Origin: Bacilli bacterium
GTDB taxonomy: Bacteria > Bacillota_I > Bacilli_A > RF39 > UBA660
Direction: 5' to 3'
DNA: 64,000 nt
NCBI GenBank assembly: GCA_038321575.1
Contig: JBBQFD010000001.1
Location: 2,982 to 66,981, forward strand
A program made the position numbers and the translations under genes. A model generated the notes under the pieces. The model had not been told where the DNA came from, ran no database searches, and worked only from the letters and a program-made list of their open reading frames with translations. Positions 30,246-59,123 of this stretch are shown piece by piece. Each line of letters begins with the position of its first letter. The first letter of the stretch is position 1.

Positions 30246-30270
30246 ATATTATTATATATGATATCAAAAA

Positions 30271-30346: not shown

Positions 30347-30368
30347 ATCTAACCTAGCTATAATTAAA

Positions 30369-30452: not shown

Positions 30453-30456
30453 AACA

Positions 30457-30532: not shown

Positions 30533-30535
30533 ATC

Positions 30536-35825: not shown

Positions 35826-35962
35826 AAAAAAACTCCGACACATAGTCCGAGTTAGATTCCTTTTTCTTATCTCTCGGCTTTAGCCGCAGGATTTAGCACC
35901 TAATTTAATAGGTTGCTGGGTTTCACAGGACCTGTATCCTCCACCGCTCTTGATAAGGTAAT
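35826..35962 (-). promoter_or_regulatory. SAM-I (S-box) riboswitch with terminator-type expression platform, leader of metK
   Basis: The minus strand reads CTTATCAAGAGCGGTGGAGGATACAGGTCCTGTGAAACCCAGCAACC...GGTGCTAAATCCTGCGGCTAAAGCCGAGAGATAAG. A hairpin (aactcggactatgtgtcggagtt) and a U7 run follow immediately before the metK RBS. Confidence 0.85.
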
Positions 35963-37362: not shown

Positions 37363-38556
37363 TTCAGCTAATATCTTCTTCATTGTTTCTTTGTATTTTT
37401 CGACTCCTTCTTGATTGAAGGCATCAACATCACTAAGATGACCATTAACCGCACAAGAAATCATAAAGAATTGAAGTATATATCCTAAATTAAAAGTTGT
37501 TAGTTTATCAACATTAATAATATTATTAATAACACCATCTTTAAAGTGGGCAATCGAGGTTGCTTTAGATGCAATATTATTTATTTCATTTAGACTCTTC
37601 TTATATTCATCAACTTCAATATCTTTTTCAACTTCTAAAATATTTATAACGGTTTCAAATAAAATATGACTACCGTCTTGAATAAATTGTCCCATCGAAT
37701 GAAGATCTCTCGTATTTATAATCCCAATTGGTAAAGTACCTTTACCATCTTTACCTAATGATTCTGAATATAATTGTTTTAACCATTCAGTAAGTGCATC
37801 TAATTTTGGTTCATAAGCAACAAAAGCTTCAACCATCGTTCCCTTTTTATAAAGAATATCTCTAATAATAGCATATTTAATTTGATTATTAACAGTCTTT
37901 TGTGATTCGATGGCACCATCTAATAACTCTTCAATATTGATACCAGCTACTGCGATTGGTAATAAACCAACCGGTGTAAAGACTGAATATCTACCACCAA
38001 TATCATTAGGAATATCAAATGTCTTATAACCTTCAGCATTTGCTTTTCCATTACCACCCGTTAAAATAATACGTTCTTTTAACTCTTCACTTGAATATTT
38101 TTCTTTCATAATATCTAAAATAAGGTCAAATACAACTCTAGTTTCAAAAGTTGTTCCTGATTTAGATATGTAATTAACAATAATGTCTTTGTTTTTAATC
38201 AATTCTTTTAATTCAATCAAATATTCACTTGATAGAGAAGTCCCCAGAAAATATATTTCTGGTTTTTTTTGTTCGTTATAGAAATATGGACTCAATGATT
38301 CAATTACTGCTAATGAACCTAAGTAAGAACCGCCAATTCCTACTACTAAAAATGCATCACAGTTGTTTTTAATCTGTAAACTAGTCTTTTTAATCTCATC
38401 AATCAGTTCTTGCTTTTTTAGATTTTTAGGATAAGCCCAACCCATCATATTTTGATGAGTTTTAAAATAATTACTTAATTCTTTGATTTTTGGATCATAG
38501 GTCGCAATCTCTTCATCAGTAATATCACTATAGGTTTTAAAATCAAAACTTATCAT
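37360..38556 (-). CDS. pgi: glucose-6-phosphate isomerase (Bacillus-type Pgi)
   Basis: VVGIGGSYLGSLA, SKSGTTFET, GGRYSVFTPVGLLPIAVAG and EWLKQLYSESLGKDGKG are present. It overlaps the giant upstream gene by 4 nt. Confidence 0.85.
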   Translation of the reverse strand: MISFDFKTYSDITDEEIATYDPKIKELSNYFKTHQNMMGWAYPKNLKKQELIDEIKKTSLQIKNNCDAFLVVGIGGSYLGSLAVIESLSPYFYNEQKKPEIYFLGTSLSSEYLIELKELIKNKDIIVNYISKSGTTFETRVVFDLILDIMKEKYSSEELKERIILTGGNGKANAEGYKTFDIPNDIGGRYSVFTPVGLLPIAVAGINIEELLDGAIESQKTVNNQIKYAIIRDILYKKGTMVEAFVAYEPKLDALTEWLKQLYSESLGKDGKGTLPIGIINTRDLHSMGQFIQDGSHILFETVINILEVEKDIEVDEYKKSLNEINNIASKATSIAHFKDGVINNIINVDKLTTFNLGYILQFFMISCAVNGHLSDVDAFNQEGVEKYKETMKKILAE

Positions 38557-44500: not shown

Positions 44501-46259
44501 CTTCTAATTCAATACTAATTCGTGGTTGCATAATTGCATAACCAGCAATAACCTTCTTGCGGTCTTTTGATAAAACTGGTTTGTTCATTGGGTGAATCAT
44601 TGCCCCAATTAATTTTAAAGCAGTATTCAAAAGCAGTTTAGTATCTGCATCTAAAGTTATAACATATTTTATTTTAGTTTTAAAATCTTTAAAAGTATGA
44701 TAATTAAAATATAAATCTTGATCTTCTTTATTTAATTTGTGTAATAATAATTGATTAAAATGTAATAAAGCTCCTCTTTTTCTTTCATAACCTAAATAAG
44801 AAGCCTCACTTTCATTATAAAAGCGATTACGATACGCAAAATTAAATACCTTACTACCATATTTTTCGTTAAGTTGATTAACTTTCTTAATGCCAGCATC
44901 GATAACTATTTGATCCATAGCAACATTTTCTGTTGTCTCGCTAGTTACATCACCAAGCAAAGTAAAGTATAAATTAGTTGTACGGTTTGATAAATAATAT
45001 AACTCTAAATTATCAAACATTTGGTTAACTTTGTTAGCGCTATTTAAAATAGTTGGAATAACTACCATCGTACTATATTCAGCCGGAAAACTTTCTTCAA
45101 CTTTGATTTTAAATAGACTTTTCGTATTTACTGTTTTTAATAGTATTTGGTTTACTATATCAATAACATATCCTAATGACGGAATAAGTAAAAGCAGGAA
45201 CCCCGTTATTCCAAAAAAGTATGAACCTATAAACGACAAAATCAATGTTAATGCAAACACGGTTGTAATATACACAACAGTTCTTGTTTTATAATCTTTT
45301 TCTTCAAATAAATAAAATCCGATATGTTTTTCGTTATTGTCAGCAACTTTTACTAAGTTCTTAATGTATTGATACTCATTAATTTTATTATTTTTAACTG
45401 TTTTCTTAATTTGATTACGATATTCTGCTTTCGAACTTTCATACATCGAATCATATATATTAACTTTCTCATTAATTAATGCTTTTTCTGTATAACTAAC
45501 ACTAGAATATAGTAATTCCATCTTAACTTTAATCATTTTTTTAAGTGATTCAAACAAATTAACCATTAATAAATTCTCGTTTAATTTTTCTTCGTGTTGT
45601 TCTTTAATAATATCCTTTAATGACATACTATTTTTAATTAATAATTCATTTAATTTTTTAAAGACTGATTCTGAAATAGAATCAAGTTCACTTAATTTAT
45701 AGTTTAATTCTTCAATATAATAATGATTATCTAAAATCGAATTATTGATTTTTATATAATCATATATATTACGATTTTTCTTTTGATATTGATTTTTTTC
45801 GATTATTTTAAAAGCACGATCAATACTATGTGTTTCATCAAGTTTGTTGTTTAATTTCATTGCTAGTTTCTTAAGCTCATTAATTATGATAATTCTGAGA
45901 ACAATATTTATATAATCAAATTCATCATAAGAAAAATAATCTTTATTTGCCTCTTGGTAATTATTAATTTGTTCAAATACTATCGCCAAACTAAATTTGA
46001 AATTTTGTTGCACTAAAAAACTATAGAGTAATTCCCTTATTTGTTTCTTTCGACTATTTTTAATTTTTAAGATACTTTTCTTTTTTAAACTACCTTCAAT
46101 TTGAATTTGTTGTTCACTTATTAAATAGTAGTTATCAATAATCCATTCATTAATACTACCAACGCTTTGGTTTTGCTTTGTATATGAGACTAATTTTTTA
46201 TAATACACCGTTATATAATGAATATCCAAATTTAATTTTTTTAATACGATATTATTCAT
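38553..46259 (-). CDS. giant membrane glycosyltransferase-GH94 glycoside phosphorylase fusion, cyclic beta-1,2-glucan synthase (Cgs/NdvB/ChvB)-like, 2568 aa
   Basis: The N-terminal third has TM clusters flanking a GT-A-type region (LDADT DxD motif, HRWTRGDWQ). The C-terminal ~1000 aa has GH94 hallmarks (MGSGDWNDGMN, GGWTWYTGSASWAY). A middle alpha-helical region links them. Confidence 0.75.
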   Translation of the reverse strand: MNNIVLKKLNLDIHYITVYYKKLVSYTKQNQSVGSINEWIIDNYYLISEQQIQIEGSLKKKSILKIKNSRKKQIRELLYSFLVQQNFKFSLAIVFEQINNYQEANKDYFSYDEFDYINIVLRIIIINELKKLAMKLNNKLDETHSIDRAFKIIEKNQYQKKNRNIYDYIKINNSILDNHYYIEELNYKLSELDSISESVFKKLNELLIKNSMSLKDIIKEQHEEKLNENLLMVNLFESLKKMIKVKMELLYSSVSYTEKALINEKVNIYDSMYESSKAEYRNQIKKTVKNNKINEYQYIKNLVKVADNNEKHIGFYLFEEKDYKTRTVVYITTVFALTLILSFIGSYFFGITGFLLLLIPSLGYVIDIVNQILLKTVNTKSLFKIKVEESFPAEYSTMVVIPTILNSANKVNQMFDNLELYYLSNRTTNLYFTLLGDVTSETTENVAMDQIVIDAGIKKVNQLNEKYGSKVFNFAYRNRFYNESEASYLGYERKRGALLHFNQLLLHKLNKEDQDLYFNYHTFKDFKTKIKYVITLDADTKLLLNTALKLIGAMIHPMNKPVLSKDRKKVIAGYAIMQPRISIELEATDKSQYTQLFAGLGGLDIYTTKSFDLYQDVFNEGSFVGKGIYDLEIFDEIINNNFPDNLILSHDLLEGNYLRCGFVSDVEFFDGFPSKYLNDAGRHHRWTRGDWQIISWLKNKVRNKKNEVVKNPINLIEKWKIFDNLVRSLKSLALLLLIIYGFTISKLNPTISLVIVMIIIATPIFFYLFAKIFSKQKYDIFLKYYLNLITGIFAVVIKSFIILALLPYETCLYLDAIIKSVYRMLISKKNLLNWITSEEVEKRSKNNLLTYINNFKANYLFTLLIIWLAYYFKQDYIYVAYFLASIWIFAPFLMFFISLDIKYESQPLSGKAKGEIRDIAIRTWSFFEDYLTREFNYLMPDNFQSNREEKIDYRTSPTNVGLSITSVISAYELKIINETVAIDLLANILKSVEGLAKWNGHLYNWYNIYEMKAIPPFFISTADSGNFVSSLYVLKGFLEHLTHYKVLEYRVNKLIAATDFSKLYNHDLDVFSVGYTINEGKLVPYHYNNFLSESRLSSFIAIAKGDVPFKHWFCLDKTLTKYKLYKGVVSWTGTMFEYYMPLIFMKTYKHTLLDETYLFAYYAQKEFMREADPKLPWGITESAYNELDDSQNYKYKAFGVPHLKFQDSETPLIVIAPYGSLMALGRYPNGVYENIKKLKKLDMYGKYGLYEAYDNEDKVVVKAYYSHHQGMILSSIANYFHENIIQEYFHADKNIKAIELLLKEKVQIRPYIDLKIERYKKYSYKRDIQDTDVREQTGIMPMPSVGVLSNGFYSTFINDRGIGFSKYKNLFINRYRNVTDENYGVFIYIKNLKTNNFWTNTYLPAKKAPDKYRVVFASDRIKYTREDEDIITNTEIMVTKEHNAEIRKITFENTSNDDINLEVTSYSEIIMARNEEDIAHRAFNSLTIASEIDEKTSSLIFKRSSRTKENTKYFVVNRMFIDGEDSINFEFETSRANFIGRNNTTANPFKICNSERLSCDIDDLIDPIMSIRKNIKIKANSKKIIYLLVGFGKSREQIDEIVNTYNNKKIVDVAFEMATILNNMRNHYAGLNGRELMSYNTMLKYIYQTLPISIKRHEILHINNLSQDNLWKFGVSGDLPLILVNIDNAEDSGFIKEILQAYEFYKSRAIYLDVVIINNEVDGKKELVAKYINNLMYRINNLNYFENSPGNVYTISELSNEELVLFKTITKIYFDASIHKSLNQQIFDLDLLEPIKLEVSKTSNLITLLETKSPKIDFDNQYGGFSKNGSEYHVFNNDTPAPWSNIIANETFGTVITNNLGGFTYAYNSRQFKLTSWSNDAVGDPASEAIYINKQKFIPSLVKHGFGYSIFIANTEDYDMEIKVFVPRSDNLKLYDIKINNKKSTKIKLDIDFVIKPVLGETEEQTNSHILVDFDVTQNSLIMQNVYNKVFRNEKVFMSSSEKIVKYDLNDVSTKTISISIDLFKDESKELSFMLGCANNTEDIINKYQTKEFIANEFIEVVEYWKEKLSNIVIKTPDKSFDYMMNGWYLYQVYASRLYAKSAFYQVGGAIGFRDQLQDSMSLIYSNPTFTRDQILKHAKHQFIEGDVLHWWHEELSLGARTKFSDDYLWLLYVTYEYLKVTNNYTILDEKVVFVEGEHLGEQQDEKGINYSYSATQETLYYHLKLSITKALNQLGTNGLPLMGSGDWNDGMNKVGNKGIGESVWVGFFLYDLLNKIEEIAPKEDVDFIKTCHESAIELKKSINANAWDGSWYLRAFFDNGDTLGSKNNASCQIDLLSQSWSILSNVIDPRNIKPLIKEIDNRLVDNDNHLIKLLSPAFFEEKNDPGYISDYLPGVRENGAQYTHATLWYIMSLIKIGEINKAYGYLKMINPINRTTNAIDVLKYKTEPYVIAADIYSKNNYAGRGGWTWYTGSASWAYKIGIEKIIGLEKTGNTLTINPHIDSTWLNFEFTYKYLNTIYDIKVNNKDHVSEGVSSIMIDEKKVKDNLINLIDDKKKHIIIVNMGGKE

Positions 46260-47723: not shown

Positions 47724-47754
47724 AGAAAAATCTAGGTTATCCTAGATTTTTTTA
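47724..47754. terminator. bidirectional terminator between convergent PGM and GLUG-pilin genes
   Basis: The hairpin aaaatctagg-ttat-cctagatttt is followed by T-rich sequence. Confidence 0.6.
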
Positions 47755-50700
47755 ATTTGCTTCAACTGAAATACTTGTACCACTCAGTTTCCAAATAAAC
47801 TCTAAAGTAGTTGTATCTGTAAAATTAAATGAAGCATAATTCGTATAAATAGTTGTTTCTAATAACGCTTCTGCTGTAGAATTAATTCCATTTGGATCAT
47901 ACGTGTTAGCACTAATTACTGTACTACCGTTAATTGTTGATGTGGCTAAAGCAACCCCTTCTGATAACGGATTGTTGTCCTTAGCACTAATACGGTAAAC
48001 ATTTGCAGTTCCTACTATTGCACCACCGCGATATAATGATCCGCGTATTGACCCATTTGTATATCCCCAGCTGCTTGGCCAGCCACTATCGTAGGTATAT
48101 CCAGCAATTCCACCAACATAATTTGTTCCTGTTACATTTCCTTCTGACATAACATCAGAAGCATTACCATAATTATAACCAATTACTAATCCTGTATATG
48201 TAGTTCCCACTATGTTTCCAGATACATATATATCAGAAACATTGGTGCTACTTCCTTGATTATATCCAACTACTCCTCCAGTATGTGTCCCTGTTGCTGT
48301 TACAGCCAAGGTTTTTATATTCATTCCTTTTACTGAACCAGATCCGGTATTATTTCCGACTATTCCTCCGGTATAGTTACTACCATTTACAACAGTATTT
48401 GTAACATTGATTTTACTTATTATTCCTATATTTACACCGGCAATAGCACCAGTATAATTATCACCATTAATATTTAATCCTGTTAAATTAAAATTAGTAA
48501 CAGTCCCACTATTATATCCGAATATTCCGGTATTATAGGCACCGCTCAAGACAATATTATTTAAAGTCTTCCCATTACCATTAAAATTACCAGTAAATCT
48601 ATTGTTATCGCTTGATAATGTATAAAAGTATTTATCACTAAAATTGATATTATTCATTAATTTATAATAAGATCCTGGTGATAAACTAATTTGATTAAAT
48701 TCTTCGTAATTAGTTATCAAATACGGATCATCACTAGCGCCAGTACCGCTCATCGTAATAGCGGTATTGGCTATTTTAGGAATTATAACACCGCTGCTAT
48801 TGTAATCAAAATAATAACCATCAGCATCATTATCACCACCAATTATAGTATCTAGAGTTATTTCGTAAGTATTAATACTTGATATTCTAGAAGGACTAAT
48901 ATCAGAACCGTCAACTCCATAAAAACTAGTACCATTGATAGCTACACCATTAACTAAAATATCACTAGCCGACATAGCTTTATTAATTGTTCCGGCATTA
49001 CCAGTTGGTGATATTTTATTATAATTTGACGTCGCTGTAATATTGCCTTTTTTATAAATAACACCATTTATATAGCCATTTATATAACCATATGATTCTG
49101 GCCAACCACTATTATGATTATATCCAGCAATTCCTCCAACATAATTTATGCCAGTTACATTACCTTCAGTTGTAACACTCTTAATATTTCCTTTGTTATA
49201 ACCGGTAACTAATCCAACAAAATTAACCCCTGTTACGTTTCCTTTGTAAGAAACTGTTGATACATATGCATTGAGACCTCCGTCTAATAATCCAGCAATT
49301 CCACCAGTATTATCTCCAGTTCCCGTAATAGTTGCGTCAATTACATATGCACCGATAATTTTACCGCCACTGTTGCATCCTACTATTCCGCCGGTATTAG
49401 AAACGCCATTTACATTAAGATTTGTAACATTAATTTTACTAATTGTTCCTGCATTTAAGCCTGCCATTGCACCAGTACAATTTCCTCCACTAATGGTTAA
49501 TCCTGTTAAATTAACACTGGTAATAGTTCCACCATTGTATCCAAATATTCCAGTATTATAAGCACCATTTAAAACAATATTACTTAATGTCTTTCCGTTG
49601 CCATTAAAATTACCAGTGAATCTGTTATTATCACTAGATAATGTATAGAAATACTTGTTACTGAAACTAATGCTATTCATTAATTTATAATAAGACCCTA
49701 GCGAGAAACTAATTTGATTAAGTTCTTCATAATTAGTTATCAAATATGGATCATCACTAGCACCAGTACCGCTCATCGTAATAGCGGTATTAGCTATTTT
49801 AGGGATTATAACACCGCTGCTATTGTAATCAAAATAATAGCCATCAGCGTCATTGTCACCACCAATTATGGTATCTAGAGTTATTTCATAAGTATTAATA
49901 TCTGTTATTTTAGAAGAACTAATATCAGAGCCATCAGCTCCATAAAAACTAGTACCATTGATAGCTACACCATTAACTAAAATATCACTAGCCGACATAG
50001 CTTTACTAATTGTTCCGGCATTATCAGTTGGTGTTATTTTGTTATAAGTTGATTCGGCTGTAATATTTCCTTTTTTATAAAAAACACCAGCTATATAACC
50101 ATTCATATAACCATATGATTCTGGCCAACCACTATTATAAGTGTATCCAGCAATTCCTCCAATATGATTTTGACCACTTATGTTGCCTTCAGTGGTAACA
50201 TTTTTGATACTACCTCTATTATAACCAGTAACTAATCCAAGATAACACCATCCTGTTACATCACCTTTATAAGAAGTATTTGAAATATAAGCGTTAGAAC
50301 CTCCTATAAGAAATCCAACAAGTCCGCCAACATAGTTGGTACCGATAACATTTGTATCAATTACATATGCACCGATAATTTTACCACCTTCATTATATCC
50401 GGCAATTGACCCAGTATAAGTATTACCAGTAATTAACGAATTACTTAAACTCAAATCTTTAATCGTTCCGCTGTTGTATGCGAATAAACCCACATAATTT
50501 TGCGTTGGTCTATTAATGTAAAGATTATTAATAAATTTATTGTTGCCATTAAAAGTTCCAGAAAAAATGTAAGTATTATTATTTATCGGCAAGAACCCTA
50601 GGCCCGTTGTAAGTTCGGTTTTCAATGATTCAATGATAGTGTTACCATTTATATCACCAAAAGCAATTGTTGAACTATTAATATACGATTTATCATCTTG

Positions 50701-51339
50701 ATAATTTAAATTATAATTTAAATAAATTGTTTTGCCATTAAAATTTTCAGTCTTAGCGAGATTCGAAAAAGCCACTAAATCTTCAATGCTGTTTATATTA
50801 CATGTTGTATTTCCAGCATAGTTTTCAGTTGCTCCTGATCCGCATATAACTCCAGGATTAGAATCAACTACTTGTGAATATATAACGGTATCGCTATGAA
50901 TACCCATAATATCTGCTAAAAAGGTTGTCTCATCAAGAATTGATTCAACAATAGTTGGTTCTACATCAGTGTAATCTTTTACAACAGCAATTTGTAGGTC
51001 ATTGTTCCAAATACCCAAATAAACAACTCCTTCGTTATTTACTTCAACTTTACCACTATCAGGGAGTTTACCTTTAATATTTAATTTAATTTCACTTGTT
51101 TGAACACCATCTTCAAAAGTTACAACAAAACTAGAAACTGTCGTTTCTGTACTATTTAATTCGGCATACTTCATTTCAGCAGCTGAAACAATATTATCAG
51201 CACTTCTTAAAAAAACATCTGCTCTTGCTTTTTGAATGACACCAAAGATGGTTGGTGTTGCTATTAATGCAATAACCGACAAAATCACAATTACTGCTAA
51301 TAACTCGATTAAAGTAAATCCTCTTTTAATATTTTTCAA
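47752..51339 (-). CDS. giant class-III-signal-peptide (type IV pilin/ComGC-like N-terminus) protein with GLUG-motif repeats, 1195 aa, TTG start
   Basis: The N-terminus MKNIKRGFTLIELLAVIVILSVIALIATP is a prepilin peptidase site (G|FTLIE). The body has more than 20 GLUG motifs (NYVGGLVGF, NHIGGIAGY, NTGGIVGCN, NFVGLVTGYN) and an internal ~340-aa duplication. The start codon is TTG, preceded by AAGGGGG. Confidence 0.8.
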   Translation of the reverse strand: MKNIKRGFTLIELLAVIVILSVIALIATPTIFGVIQKARADVFLRSADNIVSAAEMKYAELNSTETTVSSFVVTFEDGVQTSEIKLNIKGKLPDSGKVEVNNEGVVYLGIWNNDLQIAVVKDYTDVEPTIVESILDETTFLADIMGIHSDTVIYSQVVDSNPGVICGSGATENYAGNTTCNINSIEDLVAFSNLAKTENFNGKTIYLNYNLNYQDDKSYINSSTIAFGDINGNTIIESLKTELTTGLGFLPINNNTYIFSGTFNGNNKFINNLYINRPTQNYVGLFAYNSGTIKDLSLSNSLITGNTYTGSIAGYNEGGKIIGAYVIDTNVIGTNYVGGLVGFLIGGSNAYISNTSYKGDVTGWCYLGLVTGYNRGSIKNVTTEGNISGQNHIGGIAGYTYNSGWPESYGYMNGYIAGVFYKKGNITAESTYNKITPTDNAGTISKAMSASDILVNGVAINGTSFYGADGSDISSSKITDINTYEITLDTIIGGDNDADGYYFDYNSSGVIIPKIANTAITMSGTGASDDPYLITNYEELNQISFSLGSYYKLMNSISFSNKYFYTLSSDNNRFTGNFNGNGKTLSNIVLNGAYNTGIFGYNGGTITSVNLTGLTISGGNCTGAMAGLNAGTISKINVTNLNVNGVSNTGGIVGCNSGGKIIGAYVIDATITGTGDNTGGIAGLLDGGLNAYVSTVSYKGNVTGVNFVGLVTGYNKGNIKSVTTEGNVTGINYVGGIAGYNHNSGWPESYGYINGYINGVIYKKGNITATSNYNKISPTGNAGTINKAMSASDILVNGVAINGTSFYGVDGSDISPSRISSINTYEITLDTIIGGDNDADGYYFDYNSSGVIIPKIANTAITMSGTGASDDPYLITNYEEFNQISLSPGSYYKLMNNINFSDKYFYTLSSDNNRFTGNFNGNGKTLNNIVLSGAYNTGIFGYNSGTVTNFNLTGLNINGDNYTGAIAGVNIGIISKINVTNTVVNGSNYTGGIVGNNTGSGSVKGMNIKTLAVTATGTHTGGVVGYNQGSSTNVSDIYVSGNIVGTTYTGLVIGYNYGNASDVMSEGNVTGTNYVGGIAGYTYDSGWPSSWGYTNGSIRGSLYRGGAIVGTANVYRISAKDNNPLSEGVALATSTINGSTVISANTYDPNGINSTAEALLETTIYTNYASFNFTDTTTLEFIWKLSGTSISVEAN
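48355..50394. repeat. ~1.02 kb near-identical tandem duplication (2 copies) inside the GLUG-pilin gene
   Basis: Long DNA stretches in 48550..48960 and 49570..49980 are near-identical at a 1020-nt offset. Protein residues about 316-655 and 656-995 are collinear with few substitutions. Confidence 0.8.
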
Positions 51340-51452: not shown

Positions 51453-52205
51453 CTACTTTTTTTTATTTTTTTGAATATTATAAGTCATTTGAAGAATTAA
51501 CTTAGTTGGTACTATACGGCCAATATAATAAGCTATCTTCATGTACCATCCCGGTATAATAATTAATTTCTTCTTAAACATTTGATCAATTGCATATTTA
51601 GCAACATAACTACTTTTTAAGGGTTTCATACTAAAATCAACATTAGCTACTTTACTAAAATTAGTAGAAACTGGTCCTGGGCATAATACTGAGACTACTA
51701 CTTGAGAGTTATCTCTTTTTAATTCTTCATATAAAGCAGTTGTTAGTCTTAAAACATAGGCTTTAGTTGCATAATAGGTAGCCATTAAAGGACCTGGTTG
51801 AAATGCTGCTGCCGATGCGACATTTAAGATATAACCACTATTTCTTTTTTTCATATTTTTTAAAAATAGCTTACTCAATATATGGACAGCTTTGATATTT
51901 AAATCAATCATATCTAATTCTTTATAAATATCCGTATCATTAAATTTACCGAATAAGCCAAAACCAGCATTATTTACTAAAATATCAATCTTATCATTTT
52001 CATACATATCATAAAGTTTATTACAGTTATTTTCTTTACTTAAATCTAAAGTTACTATTTCAGTTTTACCTTTTAACTCTTTAGCAACTTCTTTTAGTTG
52101 CACTGTATTTCTAGCTACTAATACTAAATCATAACCTAGAGTATCTAAATATCTTGAGATATCACGGCCAATACCACTTGATGCGCCTGTTACTATTGCT
52201 TTCAT
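51453..52205 (-). CDS. SDR-family oxidoreductase
   Basis: TGASSGIG, NNAG and a S...YxxxK catalytic triad (YYATK) are present. Confidence 0.85.
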   Translation of the reverse strand: MKAIVTGASSGIGRDISRYLDTLGYDLVLVARNTVQLKEVAKELKGKTEIVTLDLSKENNCNKLYDMYENDKIDILVNNAGFGLFGKFNDTDIYKELDMIDLNIKAVHILSKLFLKNMKKRNSGYILNVASAAAFQPGPLMATYYATKAYVLRLTTALYEELKRDNSQVVVSVLCPGPVSTNFSKVANVDFSMKPLKSSYVAKYAIDQMFKKKLIIIPGWYMKIAYYIGRIVPTKLILQMTYNIQKNKKK

Positions 52206-52244
52206 TACAACACCTCTATAATAAGTATAACATAATTATAGCCA

Positions 52245-52272
52245 TAAAAAAATCTAGATAAACTAGATTTTT
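52245..52272 (-). terminator. terminator after heliorhodopsin gene
   Basis: The hairpin aaaatctag-ataa-actagatttt lies directly after the stop codon. Confidence 0.55.
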
Positions 52273-52278
52273 AAATTA

Positions 52279-53058
52279 TTATGGTTGCATTACTCCGAAG
52301 AATACTAACCATGCCAATACTGATTTAGCAACTAAGCTAAGAATAATATAAGCACGTTCGCCATATAGATAATCTGCCCATTTGCCTTTTTCTTTATATT
52401 GTAAGATCATATTAATTGGGAATAGATTAAAGAATACTAAATATGATCCAAATACCGCATAAACAAACCATGGTATTTGAGTAGGATCAGAATTACCAAA
52501 GGCATACATAATAACTACTATCCAAGGAATTAAGCCGGCGATTGATCCAAATATAAATGGTAACCAATCAATTTTCTTGTGATTTTGATTCATTTTTTCC
52601 ATTAATAAACCAAATAGATTCATGGTTGCATTTAAACCAAAGATCAACATTAATGACCCAATGTCTTTAACGCCGAATAATACAGCAATTAAGACAATCA
52701 TTAGTGATGAGCTAAGAGCATATTCATACCATCTAAACATATTCATATTATTACTTATTTGTTTAATGTATCCCTTATTAAATCTAGGTGATGCTACTAT
52801 AAAGTGAAACATCGCTGATAAGAATAGAAATACTGATACTAATATCCCAAATGGTAAAGTAAACAATACCTTTTGAACATTTACTAAATGCATTGTTGCT
52901 TTATCAAAAGTTAAAAAGTTTGAATATATATCTGGTCTAAAATTAGCCACCTTTGCCACATTTAACGCTACATATAGCATAAATGCTCCTTGAATAAAGT
53001 GGAAAAATCCCATAAATAAATTAAATCTTGTTAGGGCCTTAAATTTGTTTTCTAACAT
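52279..53058 (-). CDS. heliorhodopsin
   Basis: Seven TM helices are present. The 259-aa protein has FRWYEYALSSSLMIVLIA (TM3, Glu counterion) and GERAYIILSLVAKSVLAW (TM7, Schiff-base Lys), the hallmark blocks of heliorhodopsins. Confidence 0.85.
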   Translation of the reverse strand: MLENKFKALTRFNLFMGFFHFIQGAFMLYVALNVAKVANFRPDIYSNFLTFDKATMHLVNVQKVLFTLPFGILVSVFLFLSAMFHFIVASPRFNKGYIKQISNNMNMFRWYEYALSSSLMIVLIAVLFGVKDIGSLMLIFGLNATMNLFGLLMEKMNQNHKKIDWLPFIFGSIAGLIPWIVVIMYAFGNSDPTQIPWFVYAVFGSYLVFFNLFPINMILQYKEKGKWADYLYGERAYIILSLVAKSVLAWLVFFGVMQP

Positions 53059-53099
53059 AAATAACCTCCTTTAATATAATAATACCACTTTTTGCATTA

Positions 53100-53138
53100 T
53101 TTGCAAGTAAATAAAAAACCATATTTAATATGGTTTTT
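53100..53138 (-). terminator. Rho-independent terminator
   Basis: The hairpin aaaaaccatattt-aa-tatggttttt is followed on the minus strand by a U-run. Confidence 0.6.
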
Positions 53139-53144
53139 AACATG

Positions 53145-53318
53145 TTATTCTCTAAAATTTCTCTTTCCGAAAATAACGGAAAGAACAAATAGTACTAAGA
53201 ATACTAGGAATAGTACTTTAGCAATTTCAGTTGCTGCGCCGGCAATTCCTCCAAAACCAAGAATACCTGCTATTATAGCAATTATAAAAAAGGTTATTGC
53301 ATATCTAAGCATAATCAT
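53145..53318 (-). CDS. DUF1328 (UPF0391) family small membrane protein, 57 aa, not in ORF track
   Basis: The minus strand encodes [57 protein letters not shown], preceded by GAGGGGG. The 53092..53334(+) ORF opposite it is low complexity. Confidence 0.65.
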
Positions 53319-53380: not shown

Positions 53381-54088
53381 TCACTTATAAACGAAATTGA
53401 GTTCTTTATTTATTAGTATGTATATTCCATATAAAATAGTAAACAAAGTAATTAAAAGTAGATATAACACTACAAGATACCCTATTGGACCAAATAATTT
53501 AAACATATTCTCTAAGACAGTCCCTTTTGGTCCTTCCATTAAATACATAAAATTAGCATGTGTAATTGTATTGAAAATATATATTAATGCCATAATAATT
53601 ACAGATAATATATAATATGAATATAAATCTTTCTTTGTTATTTTAAACTTATAAGTTATTAACATATAAATAGTTCCCATAACCAGCATCATATGACTCA
53701 TAATAAAGAAAATAGCTCTTAAAAGTCCTGGGTCGGGATGTAATTTCCCTGGCATTAAAGCTACTGCTAACGCCGTTGGGATTCCTATTAAAAAAGTAAA
53801 AGTAAATAACTTATTATTTGGCCATATAAGACATATAATAAGGAAAATAAAATCTAAATTGCATACATGAAGAGACAATAAATCTTGGATTTTAAATACT
53901 CCAATTGAAATATCAAATCCATATCTAACACTTCTTATCAAAATAATAGTAAGTGCTAAGAAAATCCCAATCATTCTTACTTTATCAGGATATTTTTTAG
54001 CTATTAATATAAATATAATTCCTAAAAGAATTGGTATAATCATCGATATAATATGTTCGTAACCAAATAGATTTAGATTATATATCAT
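53381..54088 (-). CDS. polytopic membrane protein, YwaF/TIGR02206-like
   Basis: Seven to eight TM helices and an LHVCNL motif are present. Confidence 0.5.
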   Translation of the reverse strand: MIYNLNLFGYEHIISMIIPILLGIIFILIAKKYPDKVRMIGIFLALTIILIRSVRYGFDISIGVFKIQDLLSLHVCNLDFIFLIICLIWPNNKLFTFTFLIGIPTALAVALMPGKLHPDPGLLRAIFFIMSHMMLVMGTIYMLITYKFKITKKDLYSYYILSVIIMALIYIFNTITHANFMYLMEGPKGTVLENMFKLFGPIGYLVVLYLLLITLFTILYGIYILINKELNFVYK

Positions 54089-55238: not shown

Positions 55239-55730
55239 TTATTTATAAATTTTTCTTATTTTAATTGTGCTTGCACTTGTCTTAAGATTATTTAAATGCT
55301 CTATTTGCCAATTTCTTTCAGCTTCCAATATATCATCCACATTAGCGTTATCTTTATTTAAATAATATAATGCTGAAATAACATACATTGCTGATCCTTC
55401 TGAATGAGTTTTAACGTGACAAGTAGCAAGGGCATGACTACACGCTCTAGCGATTTGACATGCAACTTTATCGGTTGCCTCAAGTTCTCTAGCAACTGCA
55501 AGCGTGGGATATGTAAATTTTCTTGCATCCCACATTTTAACTTCATCACTTAGCCATTTATTTAACATATTAAGCGCATCACGAGGTCTTGTTTCATTAG
55601 GATATTTATCTTCAATTAAATATAAATACTTTGTCACACAATCAAATGCCCATCTTGCCAATAATTTTTGATCGGTATCTTTTATTAATTCAACTAATCG
55701 CGGATCATGTCGTAATTTTTTTAAATCCAT
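55239..55730 (-). CDS. hypothetical alpha-helical protein (163 aa)
   Basis: It is an intact ORF upstream of the FAD oxidoreductase. I recognise no catalytic motif. Confidence 0.5.
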   Translation of the reverse strand: MDLKKLRHDPRLVELIKDTDQKLLARWAFDCVTKYLYLIEDKYPNETRPRDALNMLNKWLSDEVKMWDARKFTYPTLAVARELEATDKVACQIARACSHALATCHVKTHSEGSAMYVISALYYLNKDNANVDDILEAERNWQIEHLNNLKTSASTIKIRKIYK

Positions 55731-55746
55731 AACAACACCTCCTTAG

Positions 55747-57126
55747 TTATTTCATTTTTCTAGCAACTTGAATACCATTCATACTGGCTTGCATTAACCC
55801 TCTAGTAATTCCAGCCCCATCACCTAGTGCATAAAGATTTTTGATGTTAGTTTCGAAATTATTATTAACCATTACTTTATTAGAATAGAATTTTACTTCT
55901 ACACCATAAATTAGCGTTTCATCATTAGCAAAACCAGGCATCATAAGATCAAGTTTTCCCATTGTTTCAATTATATCAGTCATAATTCTGGTTGGAAAAA
56001 CTAAACTAAAGTCCCCTGCCACTGCATCTTTTAAAGTTGGTTTTAATTTATTATTCATAAATTCTTGTTGACTTGTTTTTCGATAATTCTTAAAATCACC
56101 ATAGCGTTGAACCATAACTTTGTTATTAGTAAATAAATTAGCTAATTGCGCGATTGTTTTACCATATGTTACCGCATCTTCAAATGGATCTTCCATTTCT
56201 AATGAAACAAGGAGAGCAAGATTAGTATTATTAGATTTTAAGTTTTCTTGTTTATAACTGTGTCCGTTAGCAACCGCTAGATCGTTATCATAACGTTCTT
56301 CACTAACTTCACCACGAGGATTCCAACAAAAGGTACGGACTTTATCATTAAATTTATCAGTATAATTAACGATTTTGCTCTCATAACTAATGTCATCTAT
56401 TTCTTTAGTAATTTTGCTATCAACTTCAACTCGCACTCCTATATCGATAATACCCGTTTTAGATTCAATATGATGTTCATGACAAATCTTGCTTAACCAG
56501 CTACAACCATCACGGCCAACACTAACAATTACTTTTTTCGCCATATAACTTTGGTTATTAACTAATACACCATATATAATATTATCTTTAATTAATAAAT
56601 TTGATACCGGAGAATTAAATAACATATCAATTCCCATATCACTTAATTTATCTTCAATTTTAGAATATATTTCAAATGATGCTTCCGTACCTAAATGTCT
56701 AATGCCTGATTCAATGACTTTTAAACCAACTTTCTTGGCTTTTTCTTGAATACTAGGATTACCATGTTCACCATATACTTTTTTATCAGCACCAAATGAT
56801 AAATAAATATCATCCGTATATTTTAATAACGTATTAAATTCTTCTAAAGTCATATAATTAATAAGATTCCCGCCCACTTCACCATGACCATTAATACTAA
56901 GTTTACCATCAGAAAAAGCTCCAGCACCTGAAAACCCCGTTATAATATTACAAGGAACACAATTAACACATTTACCAATATGTCTTTTAGGGCATACTCT
57001 TTTTTTAATTGATCTTCCCTTTTCAATCATTAAAATATGACTTTTCGGATACAATAATTTGTATTCGTATGCTGCAAAAATACCACTAGGGCCAGCACCA
57101 ACAATTATTAAATCATATTCATTCAT
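55747..57126 (-). CDS. FAD-dependent oxidoreductase (COG2509-type)
   Basis: A Rossmann GxGxxG is present (DLIIVGAGPSGIFAA). The protein is 459 aa. Confidence 0.75.
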   Translation of the reverse strand: MNEYDLIIVGAGPSGIFAAYEYKLLYPKSHILMIEKGRSIKKRVCPKRHIGKCVNCVPCNIITGFSGAGAFSDGKLSINGHGEVGGNLINYMTLEEFNTLLKYTDDIYLSFGADKKVYGEHGNPSIQEKAKKVGLKVIESGIRHLGTEASFEIYSKIEDKLSDMGIDMLFNSPVSNLLIKDNIIYGVLVNNQSYMAKKVIVSVGRDGCSWLSKICHEHHIESKTGIIDIGVRVEVDSKITKEIDDISYESKIVNYTDKFNDKVRTFCWNPRGEVSEERYDNDLAVANGHSYKQENLKSNNTNLALLVSLEMEDPFEDAVTYGKTIAQLANLFTNNKVMVQRYGDFKNYRKTSQQEFMNNKLKPTLKDAVAGDFSLVFPTRIMTDIIETMGKLDLMMPGFANDETLIYGVEVKFYSNKVMVNNNFETNIKNLYALGDGAGITRGLMQASMNGIQVARKMK

Positions 57127-57171
57127 ATTATCACCACAAGTATTATAGCAAAAAAAACTAACTTTTTATAG

Positions 57172-57870
57172 TTAGTTTTTTTCTTCTTTTAAAATGCTAT
57201 CCAGAAACTGAACATTTATATGCTCAGCATCACAAAACGGTTTATTATCAGAATGTCCACATCTACATAAAGTAATACGGTTCCTTGGTTCTAATATGTT
57301 ACCATGCTCATCTTCAATAGTAATATCGCCTCTTACCCAAATTGGACCACTACATCCCTTTAATGGATCTTGAAGTATTACAATACTCGGATCATATACC
57401 GGTTCAATGACTTGATTAGTATTTTTATCATACATAACAAGTCTTCCTGATGGGCAATCGCAAGCTAATTTAATAGCTAACTTTTCATCTTCAGCATTGT
57501 TCGCTTCTTCAGTTAAAGTCCAAGCATTACCTTTTTTAGAATGACAAAATCTGGACAATGAACACAACTCTTCAACATCTTCCATGATAAGATTCTTACC
57601 ATAATATTTTAAAGCATCTTCTTTAAATGGTTTCATAGTAGGACTTAGGGTGCCATCAAAATGGGTTGCAACGTGAGCACCATCACAAAAAGGTGCATTC
57701 TTTGATTTACCACATCTGCACAATGCGTAAGCAGTACTAACTTCAAATTTCCTGCCTTGTTTATATATATAACCAGTCGTATTTAAATCAATGATCATTT
57801 CTTCTAATGATATATTCCCTGATACTAAATATGGGCCATTCTTGGTTATCTTTATTTTATTTATATTCAT
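57172..57870 (-). CDS. tandem CDGSH iron-sulfur domain protein
   Basis: Two CDGSH-type motifs are present: CRCGKSKNAPFCDGAH and CRCGHSDNKPFCDAEH. Confidence 0.8.
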   Translation of the reverse strand: MNINKIKITKNGPYLVSGNISLEEMIIDLNTTGYIYKQGRKFEVSTAYALCRCGKSKNAPFCDGAHVATHFDGTLSPTMKPFKEDALKYYGKNLIMEDVEELCSLSRFCHSKKGNAWTLTEEANNAEDEKLAIKLACDCPSGRLVMYDKNTNQVIEPVYDPSIVILQDPLKGCSGPIWVRGDITIEDEHGNILEPRNRITLCRCGHSDNKPFCDAEHINVQFLDSILKEEKN

Positions 57871-57918
57871 TTTTTATCACCTGATTACATTATAACAAAA
57901 AAATCTAACTTATAAAAG

Positions 57919-58311
57919 TTAGATTTTGTATATATAATAAGTTATTAGTGACACAATAGTTGATAATGAGCTTCCCCAAATCAAATCTATAATTGTAATC
58001 TTTAAAGGCCATTCTTTTAAAGTAGCTAGATTAGTAAGATCATATGTTGCATATGTTACTAATCCAAATAATAAGGCTGAAATAATTAATTGAATAACAT
58101 CTTGTTTAACAATAGCTGGATTAATTACAAAGTATACTAATCCTACTAAAAAGATTAAATAAAATATCCCTGCTGCAATTAAATTAGGGCTATTAGTCAT
58201 TAAATGTCCTATGGCATTCTTATAAAAATCTTTTGAGATTAATAAAAGCCATATACCATCAATAACTAAAAAAGCTATAAGTGCTATAAAATACATTTTT
58301 AAATAATTCAT
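57919..58311 (-). CDS. DUF2177-like small membrane protein
   Basis: Four TM helices are present. The likely start is Met10 (MNYLKMYF), giving an ATGA overlap with the upstream gene. The ORF track extends it to 58338. Confidence 0.55.
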
Positions 58312-59123
58312 TTTCTCACTCCTTTCTTCGGAAACCAAGGAATAAACTTGCTTGTTATCTTACTATATTTTTGATATTCCTCATCATCCTTATATTTTTT
58401 TTCGAGTAATGGAACTCCTGATACAAATAATAATAAAAAAGTTATTACTATCGGACTAATTATTATTAAAAGATTTTGACTATAAGCTGCTATAAAAAAG
58501 CCCCACCATAGTAATGACTCTCCAAAATAATTTGGATGTCTGGTATATTTCCATAAACCAGTTTTCATTAATCGATTATTTTTATCTCTATTTTTTATAA
58601 AATAAGCTAATTGGTAATCACCAATAACTTCGAATAAGTATCCTGTGATCCAAATTAATATCCCAACAACATTAATTAAACTTAATTTTGTAAAAGAAGC
58701 ATTGCTATATTGCATCGGTAAAGATATAATCCACATAAACATTCCTTGTAAAATAAATATTTGGAAGTATGCTCTTATATTAACCCATTTACCCCATTCG
58801 CTTCGCCAATTAGCGTATCTAAAGTCTTCTTTCTTTCCATAATTACGTTTAAATACATAATATGAAAGTCTTAATCCCCAAAGCATTATTAGCATTAATA
58901 GAATAATGTTTTTTAAAGAGTAAACTCCAAATATTAACATCGTTATTATTGAAACTACTACAAAACCTAGTCCCCATCCAATATCAATCAAACCATTATT
59001 CTTCTTAACTCTAGCCATAATATAAAATAAATTCATATATATAAATATTATTATCGCACTTGTTAAATATACGTTCATATTATCACTCCTTTTACAAAAC
59101 TTTTTTATATTTATATTATACAC
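58308..59123 (-). CDS. DUF1295 / steroid 5-alpha-reductase-like membrane protein
   Basis: A polytopic protein with C-terminal [20 protein letters not shown]. Confidence 0.7.

What the first reader, a model, noticed from the sequence alone, without database searches (positions are those of the whole stretch)
51453..53058. Heliorhodopsin with intact Schiff-base lysine and glutamate counterion, adjacent to an SDR oxidoreductase
The 259-aa seven-TM protein carries the two most conserved heliorhodopsin blocks: FRWYEYALSSS in TM3 with the Glu counterion, and GERAYIILSLVAKSVLAW in TM7 with the retinal-binding Lys at about codon 245 (nt 52324..52326).

Heliorhodopsins are confined to monoderm or membrane-exposed microbes, and their function is still debated. 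No blh/crt retinal-synthesis genes are in this window.

The gene immediately downstream on the same strand is an SDR-family dehydrogenase. Retinol dehydrogenases are SDRs, so it could be a retinal-handling partner. The SDR link is only a guess from adjacency.

A DUF1295 (5-alpha-reductase-like) protein and a DUF2177 membrane protein lie 5 kb away.
Basis: partly seen in the sequence, partly recalled or inferred. Interest (0 to 1): 0.65.

Follow-up and report, generated by a model that had tools for sequence, protein, structure and literature searches.

The report
Ordinary heliorhodopsin; dehydrogenase neighbour likely coincidental
The gene is a genuine, intact heliorhodopsin (a retinal-binding light-sensor membrane protein) in an uncultured low-GC Bacilli bacterium, but it looks like its own transcription unit, and the dehydrogenase next to it is a common gene of this lineage that usually sits elsewhere, so nothing here points to a retinal-handling partnership.

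Summary
ORF 52279..53058 (-) encodes a 259-aa heliorhodopsin. It scores far above the curated cut-offs (Pfam E 1.3e-98; NCBIfam HeR 318 bits against a cut-off of 100). Its model superposes on solved heliorhodopsins (TM-score 0.92). K245 aligns with the Schiff-base Lys241 of 48C12 and E112 with the Glu107 counterion. A classical SDR lies 73 nt downstream on the same strand.

The proposed SDR partnership is not supported:
- The adjacency occurs only in three closely related genomes (HeR at least 78% identical). It is absent from about 68 other loci of the same HeR clade.
- Equally close SDR orthologues in other Bacilli MAGs sit after rpoA-rplQ, with no heliorhodopsin within 6 kb.
- In all three linked loci a terminator-like hairpin follows the HeR stop codon.
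- The SDR has no specific similarity to retinol dehydrogenases.

The SDR idea was already published as speculation (Bulzu 2021; Cho 2024). The DUF1295-DUF2177 pair 5 kb upstream is the better-documented recurrent heliorhodopsin neighbour (Chazan 2021). It lies within 6 kb in 4 of 89 other loci here, but in this window it belongs to a separate operon.

Verdict: a new member of a known family, of low interest.

The parts
52279..53058 (-). Heliorhodopsin CDS, 259 aa, no extra domains
   Evidence: Pfam PF18761 E 1.3e-98. NCBIfam NF038020 317.8 bits against cut-off 100. PDB 48C12 E 5.5e-61. AF2 model pLDDT 91.9; Foldseek TaHeR 6is6 TMq 0.92.
52324..52326 (-). Codon of K245, the retinal Schiff-base lysine in TM7
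   Evidence: Aligns with Lys241 of 48C12. Codon AAA. Invariant in 51 clade sequences.
52723..52725 (-). Codon of E112, the Schiff-base counterion in TM3
   Evidence: Aligns with Glu107 of 48C12. Codon GAA. Invariant in the clade.
53079..53106 (-). Promoter-like site for the heliorhodopsin gene (TTGCAA, 16 nt, TATTAT, with TG before the -10), followed by the RBS AAAGGAGG
   Evidence: Consensus scan and sequence read. Prediction only: such sites occur at chance frequency in this AT-rich region.
52246..52272 (-). Terminator-like hairpin plus U-tract directly after the HeR stop codon (AAAAAUCUAG-UUUAU-CUAGAUUUUUUU)
   Evidence: Fold -16.2 kcal/mol for the 80-nt gap region, z -2.66. Equivalent hairpins with different stem sequences follow the HeR stop in L001, L099 and L005.
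53113..53138 (-). Terminator-like hairpin ending the upstream transcription unit (after the DUF1328 ORF)
   Evidence: Fold; coordinates.
51453..52205 (-). Classical SDR oxidoreductase, 250 aa. It is an adjacent gene and is judged not to be a functional partner of the HeR.
   Evidence: Pfam adh_short E 3.6e-43. The best NCBIfam model, mycolate reductase, scores 170.6 bits against a cut-off of 380. Orthologues at 64-69% identity lie next to rplQ without HeR.
53145..53318 (-). Small DUF1328 membrane protein ORF (57 aa), immediately upstream of the HeR promoter
   Evidence: Pfam PF07043 E 1.9e-16; coordinates.
58308..59123 (-). DUF1295 membrane protein (steroid-reductase/ICMT-like). It belongs to a family that recurs near heliorhodopsins, but here it is in a separate operon.
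   Evidence: Pfam PF06966 E 1.3e-70. Its stop codon overlaps the DUF2177 ATG as ATGA. Literature: Chazan 2021.
57919..58311 (-). DUF2177 membrane protein (probable ATG start at 58311), the family most characteristically found next to heliorhodopsins
   Evidence: Pfam PF09945 E 1.1e-43. The RBS and ATGA overlap were read. DUF2177 or DUF1295 lies within 6 kb of HeR in L047, L060, L085 and L087.

Best explanation
This is a canonical heliorhodopsin of an uncultured, wall-bearing, low-GC member of the Bacilli.

The protein is a 7-TM opsin with the N-terminus predicted to face the cytoplasm. It should bind all-trans retinal at K245, with E112 as counterion and the H20/H85 pair nearby. It keeps the lateral TM5/TM6 fenestration residues, so retinal is most likely taken up from outside rather than made in the cell.

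By analogy with characterised heliorhodopsins, it most likely acts as a slow-cycling light sensor or regulatory 'helper'. It would signal through its positively charged cytoplasmic loops to a soluble or membrane partner, and would not pump ions.

The gene looks like its own transcription unit: a promoter-like site and RBS upstream, and terminator-like hairpins on both sides.

The SDR next door is a lineage-wide oxidoreductase that happens to lie downstream in this sublineage, so it is probably not a retinal-handling partner. If the neighbourhood hints at a function at all, the hint is the DUF1295-DUF2177 operon 5 kb upstream. That would point to the published membrane-lipid or photo-oxidative-stress theme.

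Shown here: family membership, catalytic residues, fold, gene organisation and lack of conserved SDR linkage. Inferred: retinal binding, absence of ion transport, the sensory role and the identity of any partner.
For: **Family and residues**
- Searches give the profile and PDB matches.
- One search confirms H20, S81, H85, N106, R109, W110, E112, S241 and K245 at the positions of 48C12 H23, S76, H80, N101, R104, W105, E107, S237 and K241.
- All of these are invariant in 51 clade sequences.

**Fold**
- The model has pLDDT 91.9, seven long helices and an ECL1 beta-hairpin at 43-67.
- The top ten Foldseek PDB hits are all heliorhodopsins, with TMq 0.84-0.92. Type-1 rhodopsins score about 0.6.

**Topology**
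- Predicted cytoplasmic segments carry 10 K+R in 43 residues. Predicted outer segments carry 5 in 52.

**Fenestration**
- Query F168/S172/G175/F210/N211/P214 match 48C12 F162/C166/G169/F206/N207/A210, as defined in the Kornilov 2025 preprint.

**Separate transcription unit**
- Promoter-like site.
- Hairpins with U-tracts on both sides.
- Hairpins after the HeR stop also in L001, L099 and L005.

**SDR not linked**
- Survey.
- Reciprocal contexts.

**Host**
- The best named GltX relatives are 'Bacilli bacterium' or 'Mollicutes bacterium' MAGs at 72-75% identity.
- ORFs whose N-termini look like MurF/MraY and an ORF with a Sulfatase domain, as in LtaS, suggest a walled monoderm. None of the three was confirmed by a family search.

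**Literature on function**
- Glutamine synthetase, photolyase and ABC-transporter regulation (PMC9529153, PMC9769723, PMC11109279).
- HeR-only genomes mostly lack retinal synthesis.
Against: - No experiment supports it: retinal binding, photocycle and absence of transport are inferred from homology.
- The terminator hairpins are AT-rich. The window's own has only 2 G-C pairs and failed the consensus terminator scan, so read-through into the SDR cannot be excluded.
- The scan found no -35/-10 pair for the SDR in the 73-nt gap, only a TATAAT box.
- The HeR-SDR pair stayed together across one rearrangement relative to the GH94/PGI block (window against L001).
- Cho 2024 lists SDR among ten recurrent HeR operon partners in other phyla.
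- Only 64 kb of the genome is visible, so retinal genes, DegV or photolyase could lie elsewhere.
Confidence: 0.8

Rival explanations
1. The SDR is a retinol dehydrogenase that oxidises scavenged retinol to retinal to load the heliorhodopsin. 2021.
For: - It is adjacent on the same strand with a 73-nt gap.
- The pair is kept in three related genomes despite a nearby rearrangement.
- Retinol dehydrogenases are SDRs (established knowledge).
- Bulzu 2021 noted adh_short genes near HeRs.
Against: - The adjacency is absent in about 68 other clade loci with downstream sequence.
- Equally similar SDR orthologues (64-69% identity) sit after rplQ with no HeR within 6 kb, including one in a contig whose record name carries 'Hadza'.
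- There is no specific match to retinol dehydrogenases. The top PDB hits are generic oxidoreductases and ketoacyl reductases. The best NCBIfam model scores far below its cut-off.
- A terminator-like hairpin lies between the genes.
- The Arg after beta-strand 2 (VLVARN) is the usual NADP(H) signature of classical SDRs. This is inferred from the published SDR classification and was not tested. It would favour reduction of retinal rather than its production.
Confidence: 0.04
2. The heliorhodopsin is a 'helper' rhodopsin that binds the neighbouring SDR and modulates it in the light, as shown for glutamine synthetase, photolyase and an ABC transporter.
For: - Cho 2024 classed SDR as one of ten recurrent HeR operon partners, mainly in Rhodococcus and Nocardioides with -4 overlaps, and in Thermococcus with a 56-nt gap.
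- ICL1 and ICL3 here are positively charged, as required for such interactions.
Against: - The lack of conserved adjacency and the reciprocal contexts are the same as for the first rival.
- The predicted transcription units are separate.
- The published SDR-group loci have overlapping genes in other phyla. No evidence shows that those SDRs are orthologous to this one; this was not tested.
Confidence: 0.06
3. The heliorhodopsin works with the DUF1295-DUF2177 genes 5 kb upstream, and possibly with the CDGSH and FAD-oxidoreductase genes between, in light-triggered membrane-lipid remodelling or defence against photo-oxidative damage.
For: - Chazan 2021 found DUF2177, DegV and DUF1295 to be the most characteristic HeR neighbours, especially in Firmicutes and Chloroflexi.
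- Cho 2024 supplementary data list the gene orders DegV-DUF1295-DUF2177-helR (Clostridium fimetarium) and FAD oxidoreductase-DUF1295-...-helR-DUF2177 (Dehalogenimonas).
- In my survey 4 of 89 other HeR loci carry DUF1295 or DUF2177 within 6 kb. I estimate about 0.5% per locus by chance.
- Some of these loci also carry genes that look, from sequence motifs only, like glutathione peroxidase, TspO and DegV.
- DUF2177, DUF1295 and DUF1365 genes are listed among genes responding to singlet oxygen in Chlamydomonas (PMC4067076).
Against: - Seven ORFs and at least two operon boundaries, including a terminator-like hairpin, separate them from HeR here.
- The closest relative L001 has no DUF1295 or DUF2177 within 10 kb.
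- No DegV is present in the window.
- Neither DUF family has a known function.
Confidence: 0.2
4. The heliorhodopsin is an energy-harvesting or ion-transporting pigment that uses an exogenous xanthophyll as a second antenna.
For: - The full fenestration, or carotenoid-binding-site, motif is present and invariant in the clade.
- A viral HeR transports protons (PMC9448325).
Against: - According to the same preprint, the transporting viral subfamily is exactly the group that lacks this motif.
- Carotenoid binding to a HeR rests on docking in a preprint, not on measurement.
Confidence: 0.07

Closest known systems
Heliorhodopsin 48C12 (PDB 6su3/6uh3) and Thermoplasmatales archaeon TaHeR (PDB 6is6)
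   Same: About 41-46% sequence identity over the full length. Same fold (TMq 0.85 and 0.92). Same Lys, Glu and His-His active-site residues, the same Ser and Asn polar network, the ECL1 beta-hairpin and the fenestration residues.
   Different: Position 213 of 48C12 (Gln) is Met217 here, and Met is invariant in this clade. There is a one-residue insertion in ICL2 and a longer ECL1. The host is a low-GC Bacilli lineage, not an actinobacterium or an archaeon.
Trichococcus flocculiformis TfHeR, the characterised Bacilli heliorhodopsin that binds and stimulates CPD-II photolyase (PMC9769723)
   Same: The host belongs to the same class. Relatives from a nearby family (Jeotgalibaca) are 63% identical to the query. 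The mode of action, a regulatory helper acting through its cytoplasmic loops, is the one I consider most likely here.
   Different: No photolyase gene was found in the window.
The 'SDR group' of heliorhodopsin operons (Cho et al. 2024, PMC11109279, Supplementary Data 6)
   Same: An SDR-family gene lies immediately next to helR on the same strand.
   Different: Published members are mostly Rhodococcus and Nocardioides, with 4-nt gene overlaps. Here the gap is 73 nt and contains a terminator-like hairpin. The SDR is an orthologue found elsewhere without HeR.
The DegV / DUF2177 / DUF1295 heliorhodopsin neighbourhood (Chazan et al. 2021, 10.1101/2021.02.16.431466)
   Same: A translationally coupled DUF1295-DUF2177 pair lies on the same strand within 6 kb of HeR, in a Firmicutes-type host.
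   Different: The pair is not adjacent to HeR and not in the same predicted operon. No DegV is visible. CDGSH, FAD-oxidoreductase, Imm5-like, a 262-aa protein with no significant family match, TMEM164-like and DUF1328 genes lie in between.

Membership tests
Heliorhodopsin (Pfam PF18761 / NCBIfam NF038020) | Full-length match to the family profile above the curated cut-off | tested here: met
   Pfam 329.7 bits against cut-off 26.7, model positions 1-242 of 242. NCBIfam equivalog 317.8 bits against cut-off 100.
Heliorhodopsin (Pfam PF18761 / NCBIfam NF038020) | Schiff-base lysine in TM7 at the position of 48C12 Lys241 | tested here: met
   K245 aligns with K241. It lies in predicted helix 230-256 and is invariant in 51 relatives.
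Heliorhodopsin (Pfam PF18761 / NCBIfam NF038020) | Single Glu counterion in TM3 (48C12 Glu107) and the His23/His80 pair | tested here: met
   E112, H20 and H85 are aligned and invariant.
Heliorhodopsin (Pfam PF18761 / NCBIfam NF038020) | Seven-TM fold that superposes on solved heliorhodopsins, with the ECL1 beta-hairpin | tested here: met
   Model pLDDT 91.9 with strands at 43-52 and 57-67. Foldseek 6is6 TMq 0.92, rmsd 1.6 A. Type-1 rhodopsins score about 0.6.
Heliorhodopsin (Pfam PF18761 / NCBIfam NF038020) | Inverted topology (N-terminus in the cytoplasm) | tested here: met
   Positive-inside count is 10 K+R in the predicted inner segments against 5 in the outer segments. This is computational only.
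Heliorhodopsin (Pfam PF18761 / NCBIfam NF038020) | Binds all-trans retinal, has a long photocycle and shows no ion transport | not testable with these tools
   Needs heterologous expression, spectroscopy and electrophysiology.
Heliorhodopsin (Pfam PF18761 / NCBIfam NF038020) | Monoderm host | tested here: met
   The best named GltX relatives are Bacilli or Mollicutes MAGs. ORFs that look like MurF/MraY from their N-termini and an ORF with a Sulfatase domain, as in LtaS, were not confirmed by family searches. The inference rests on 64 kb only.
HeR-SDR co-transcribed operon group (Cho et al. 2024) | SDR gene adjacent to helR on the same strand | tested here: met
   SDR 51453..52205 (-) lies 73 nt downstream of HeR.
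HeR-SDR co-transcribed operon group (Cho et al. 2024) | Both genes transcribed from a single promoter | tested here: inconclusive
   A terminator-like hairpin with a U-tract follows the HeR stop in the window, L001 and L099, and a TATAAT or TATACT box follows it. The stem is AT-rich and no transcript data exist.
HeR-SDR co-transcribed operon group (Cho et al. 2024) | Association recurs among related heliorhodopsins | tested here: not met
   It occurs only in the window, L001/L002 and L099 (HeR at least 78% identical). None of about 68 other clade loci with at least 900 nt downstream has an SDR downstream. One locus has a weak, divergently oriented SDR upstream.
Retinol dehydrogenase (SDR superfamily) | Classical SDR motifs (TGxxxGxG, NNAG, Ser-Tyr-Lys) | tested here: met
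   TGASSGIG, NNAG, S-x-YYATK and PG motifs were read in the translation. Pfam adh_short E 3.6e-43.
Retinol dehydrogenase (SDR superfamily) | Specific sequence relationship to characterised retinol or retinal dehydrogenases | tested here: not met
   The top PDB hits are unnamed oxidoreductases and ketoacyl-ACP reductases. The best NCBIfam model, mycolate reductase, scores 170.6 bits against a cut-off of 380.
Retinol dehydrogenase (SDR superfamily) | Catalyses retinol/retinal interconversion | not testable with these tools
   Needs an enzyme assay.
DegV/DUF2177/DUF1295 heliorhodopsin neighbourhood (Chazan et al. 2021) | DUF2177 (with DUF1295) close to HeR with potential for co-expression | tested here: inconclusive
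   The pair is present on the same strand 4.9-6 kb upstream. It is separated from HeR by other operons and a terminator-like hairpin.
DegV/DUF2177/DUF1295 heliorhodopsin neighbourhood (Chazan et al. 2021) | DegV family gene in the neighbourhood or genome | tested here: not met
   No DegV hit among the window ORFs scanned. The rest of the genome is not visible.

The most novel reading that the evidence does not exclude
In this Bacilli sublineage the heliorhodopsin has recruited the lineage's conserved SDR as a light-regulated partner, acting either on retinoids or on a membrane lipid carbonyl. The pair, kept together through a local rearrangement, would then be a young photoreceptor-enzyme module, possibly working with the nearby DUF1295-DUF2177 genes.
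Probability: 0.07. Interest if true: 0.55.

Novelty: new member of a known kind. Interest (0 to 1): 0.2.

Why it matters
Heliorhodopsin function is still only partly understood, so each conserved gene neighbourhood is a possible clue. This locus adds little. The protein is a textbook family member, with thousands of relatives in public data (7350 hits at E below 1e-20). The proposed SDR link is already in the literature as speculation, and it fails conservation and reciprocity tests in this clade.

The useful outcome is negative. SDR adjacency in low-GC Bacilli should not be read as evidence for a retinal-supply partner. The DUF1295-DUF2177 association is the one that recurs.

Tried and rejected
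- **Exact look-up of the window HeR** in the contig index found nothing, although the identical protein P0001 is in the protein collection. I used relatives instead.
The wider survey therefore used an alignment against metagenome contigs.
- **Neighbour clustering** across 90 loci found no family shared by more than a handful of loci, apart from one large cluster in 17 loci at varying offsets that I did not annotate. This argues against any strongly conserved operon in this clade.
- **Other upstream genes.** I looked for homologues of TMEM164-like, CDGSH, FAD-oxidoreductase, the pilin-like protein, the 262-aa protein and DUF1328 near other HeRs and found none. Imm5-like recurs only in L097/L098, at 27% identity.
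- **Habitat.** A literature search for the study and sample accessions found nothing, so the habitat stays unknown.
- **Horizontal transfer** was considered and rejected. Local GC (0.278) matches the window. HeR identity tracks GltX identity on an 820-kb contig that appears to be shared (70% and 75%).
- **A fused signalling domain** (MORN, Zn-ribbon) was considered and rejected. The profile covers residues 9-257 of 259.
Full report
**1. The observation**

ORF listing shows a 259-aa ORF at 52279..53058 on the minus strand and a 250-aa ORF at 51453..52205 on the same strand. The gap between them is 73 nt.

The first ORF matches Pfam Heliorhodopsin over the whole model (E 1.3e-98, 329.7 bits against a cut-off of 26.7). 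It also matches the NCBIfam HeR equivalog (317.8 bits against 100).

Against solved structures it aligns end to end with 48C12 (E 5.5e-61) and TaHeR (E 3.3e-58). In that alignment:
- K245 (codon AAA, 52324..52326) falls on Lys241 of 48C12.
- E112 (52723..52725) falls on Glu107.
- H20 and H85 fall on His23 and His80.
- S81, N106, R109, W110 and S241 fall on S76, N101, R104, W105 and S237.

All of these residues are invariant in an alignment of 51 clade members. An AlphaFold2 model built on that alignment has pLDDT 91.9, seven long helices and a beta-hairpin at residues 43-67. Its ten best PDB matches are all heliorhodopsins (TaHeR TMq 0.92, rmsd 1.6 A). Type-1 rhodopsins follow at about 0.6.

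Charged residues follow the positive-inside rule for an N-in topology: 10 K+R inside against 5 outside.

**2. The host**

The window is uniformly about 28% GC, with no composition break at the gene. It carries a tRNA cluster and a SAM riboswitch, a glutamyl-tRNA synthetase, ORFs whose N-termini look like cell-wall genes (MraY, MurF) and an ORF with a Sulfatase domain, as in LtaS.

The best named relatives of its glutamyl-tRNA synthetase are 'Bacilli bacterium', 'Mollicutes bacterium' and 'Firmicutes bacterium' MAGs at 72-75% identity. One 820-kb contig appears to carry both a 75%-identical GltX and a 70%-identical HeR (inferred from matching contig lengths). That suggests vertical inheritance.

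So the host is an uncultured, wall-bearing, low-GC monoderm. This fits the known host range of the family (Bulzu 2021).

**3. Gene organisation**

Upstream of the HeR start lie the RBS AAAGGAGG and a promoter-like site (TTGCAA, 16 nt, TATTAT with an upstream TG; 53106..53079). Further upstream, a hairpin plus U-tract (53113..53138) closes the preceding unit, which ends in a 57-aa DUF1328 ORF.

Directly after the HeR stop is a 10-bp hairpin followed by U7 (52246..52272), and then a TATAAT box and the SDR's RBS.

The stem is AT-rich and failed the stricter consensus terminator scan. The equivalent position in the other two HeR-SDR loci (L001, L099), and in an unlinked HeR locus (L005), also carries a hairpin plus U-tract with a different stem sequence. 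I therefore read HeR as most likely monocistronic. This remains a prediction.

**4. Is the SDR a partner?**

I ran three tests.

*(a) Conservation.*
- Exact-protein look-ups and two collection scans gave 89 other HeR loci at 51-79% identity. Two later look-ups added L097-L099.
- Of the 89 loci, 68 have at least 900 nt downstream of HeR.
- An SDR follows HeR only in L001/L002 (one organism, HeR 78% identical) and L099 (79%). One further locus has a weak SDR hit on the opposite strand upstream.
- Relatives at 66-75% identity have META-domain, HIT, Wzz and other unrelated neighbours instead.
- SDRs are abundant paralogues (more than 8000 hits for this one). About one incidental SDR per 80 loci is at or below chance.

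*(b) Reciprocity.*
- The closest SDR orthologues on long contigs (69%, 67% and 64% identical) all sit just after rpoA-rplQ, and no HeR lies within 6 kb.
- One of them comes from a contig whose record name carries 'Hadza'.
- The HeR-linked SDRs (66-67% identical) are no closer to the window's SDR than these. It is therefore the same orthologue, not a HeR-specific subfamily.

*(c) Specificity.*
- The SDR has the classical motifs.
- Its best structural relatives are unnamed oxidoreductases and ketoacyl reductases.
- Its best NCBIfam model, mycolate reductase, scores 170.6 bits against a cut-off of 380.
- It has an Arg after beta-strand 2 (VLVARN). In the published SDR classification this usually marks NADP(H) use, and so reduction rather than retinol oxidation. 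This is an inference and was not tested.

The one point in favour is that the pair stayed together while the GH94/PGI block moved from one side of it to the other between the window and L001. That is a single event in close relatives.

**5. What the literature already says**

- Bulzu et al. (2021 preprint) noted adh_short genes near HeRs and suggested retinol dehydrogenases. They also reported that HeR-only genomes rarely encode retinal synthesis.
- Cho et al. (2024) list SDR-family oxidoreductase among ten recurrent HeR operon partners. Their SDR examples are mostly Rhodococcus and Nocardioides, with 4-nt overlaps.
- Chazan et al. (2021 preprint) found DegV and DUF2177, often with DUF1295, to be the most characteristic HeR neighbours, chiefly in Firmicutes and Chloroflexi. 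They proposed a role in membrane-lipid remodelling.

The DUF1295/DUF2177 remark touches the stronger published signal.

**6. The DUF1295-DUF2177 signal here**

DUF1295 (58308..59123) and DUF2177 overlap as ATGA. A CDGSH iron-sulfur protein, an FAD-dependent oxidoreductase and an Imm5-like protein follow after gaps of 16-48 nt, which looks like a single operon. Next come a 360-nt gap, a 262-aa protein with no significant family match, a TMEM164-like acyltransferase and the DUF1328 ORF. HeR follows those.

In my survey DUF1295 or DUF2177 lies within 6 kb of HeR in 4 of 89 other loci (L047, L060, L085, L087). If each genome carried one copy, I would expect about 0.5% per locus by chance.

Some of those loci also carry genes that look, by motif only, like DegV, TspO, glutathione peroxidase and MarR. 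The supplementary tables of Cho et al. show the gene orders DegV-DUF1295-DUF2177-helR and FAD oxidoreductase-DUF1295-...-helR-DUF2177. DUF2177, DUF1295 and DUF1365 genes are also listed among singlet-oxygen-responsive genes in Chlamydomonas.

This fits a photo-oxidative or lipid theme. In this window, however, the genes are not co-transcribed with HeR, and the closest relative lacks them nearby.

**7. Mechanism**

Shown: all residues needed to bind retinal and stabilise the protonated Schiff base are present. The fenestration motif defined by Kornilov et al. (48C12 F162/C166/G169/F206/N207/A210) is also present, as F168/S172/G175/F210/N211/P214.

Inferred:
- Retinal is captured from the environment through that opening.
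- Light triggers a slow photocycle with internal proton transfer and no net transport.
- The signal passes through the basic cytoplasmic loops (ICL1 SPRFNKGYIKQ, ICL3 YKEKGKWAD) to an unidentified partner.

This follows the characterised cases of glutamine synthetase, photolyase and an ABC transporter. One difference from 48C12 is Met217 in place of Gln213. The Met is invariant in this clade, and I do not know what effect it has.

**8. Verdict**

This is a real, intact and apparently ordinary heliorhodopsin. It is a new member of a known family with thousands of relatives (7350 hits at E below 1e-20).

The SDR partnership is unsupported, and I give the two SDR readings together about 10%. The neighbourhood offers at most a weak echo of the published DUF1295/DUF2177 association. 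Interest is low.

Noticed in passing
window 55239..59123 (-): This looks like one operon with gaps of 16-48 nt: DUF1295-DUF2177 (ATGA overlap), then a CDGSH / divergent 4Fe-4S protein, a COG2509-like FAD-dependent oxidoreductase and an Imm5-like protein. Three of these families (DUF1295, DUF2177, FAD oxidoreductase) also appear beside heliorhodopsins in published tables for Clostridium fimetarium and Dehalogenimonas.
   Followed up: partly
window 47752..51339 (-): A 1195-aa protein has a prepilin-type N-terminal cleavage/methylation motif (TIGR02532). It contains two long, nearly identical internal repeats and has no other family match. It lies directly downstream of the SDR. The roughly 500-aa unannotated proteins next to SDR orthologues in other loci are not detectably homologous to it.
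   Followed up: partly
window 38553..46259 (-): A 2568-aa ORF; its 2546-aa counterpart in L001 carries GH94/Glycoamylase domains (the window ORF itself was not scanned). It is flanked by phosphoglucomutase-like and PGI-like genes. This block lies on the opposite side of the HeR-SDR pair in the related contig L001.
   Followed up: no
L003 and L004/L005 (CAYGGG010000004.1, CAYNFP010000008.1): The two genome records that carry 74-75% identical heliorhodopsins are titled 'uncultured Muribaculaceae bacterium', a diderm Bacteroidota family. The contigs are 24-31% GC, and one carries CotE and FtsW/RodA/SpoVE-type genes, so the label is probably wrong. If the label were right, this would be a diderm HeR host.
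   Followed up: partly
window 53145..53318 (-) and 53381..54088 (-): A 57-aa DUF1328 membrane protein ORF, below the usual ORF length cut-off, and a TMEM164-related integral membrane acyltransferase (TIGR02206) lie immediately upstream of the heliorhodopsin. Neither recurs near other heliorhodopsins in the loci surveyed.
   Followed up: partly
L092, L093/L094, L095/L096: In several Bacilli MAGs the SDR orthologue occupies a fixed position right after the ribosomal-protein/rpoA-rplQ cluster. That is an unusual, housekeeping-like location for an SDR of unknown substrate.
   Followed up: no
window 29508..30612 (-) and 35864..35959 (-): A cluster of 12 tRNA genes, and a SAM riboswitch (S-box) upstream of the metK-like ORF (34610..35797). 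Both are ordinary.
   Followed up: no
L087 2392..6624; L060 1470..6951: In these two metagenomic contigs the heliorhodopsin lies in a same-strand run with DUF1295. L087 also has DUF2177 in the run. The other genes look, from motifs only, like MarR, DUF523/DUF1722, DegV, PlsY and TspO-like membrane proteins. They are good candidates for studying the lipid or oxidative-stress link.
   Followed up: no
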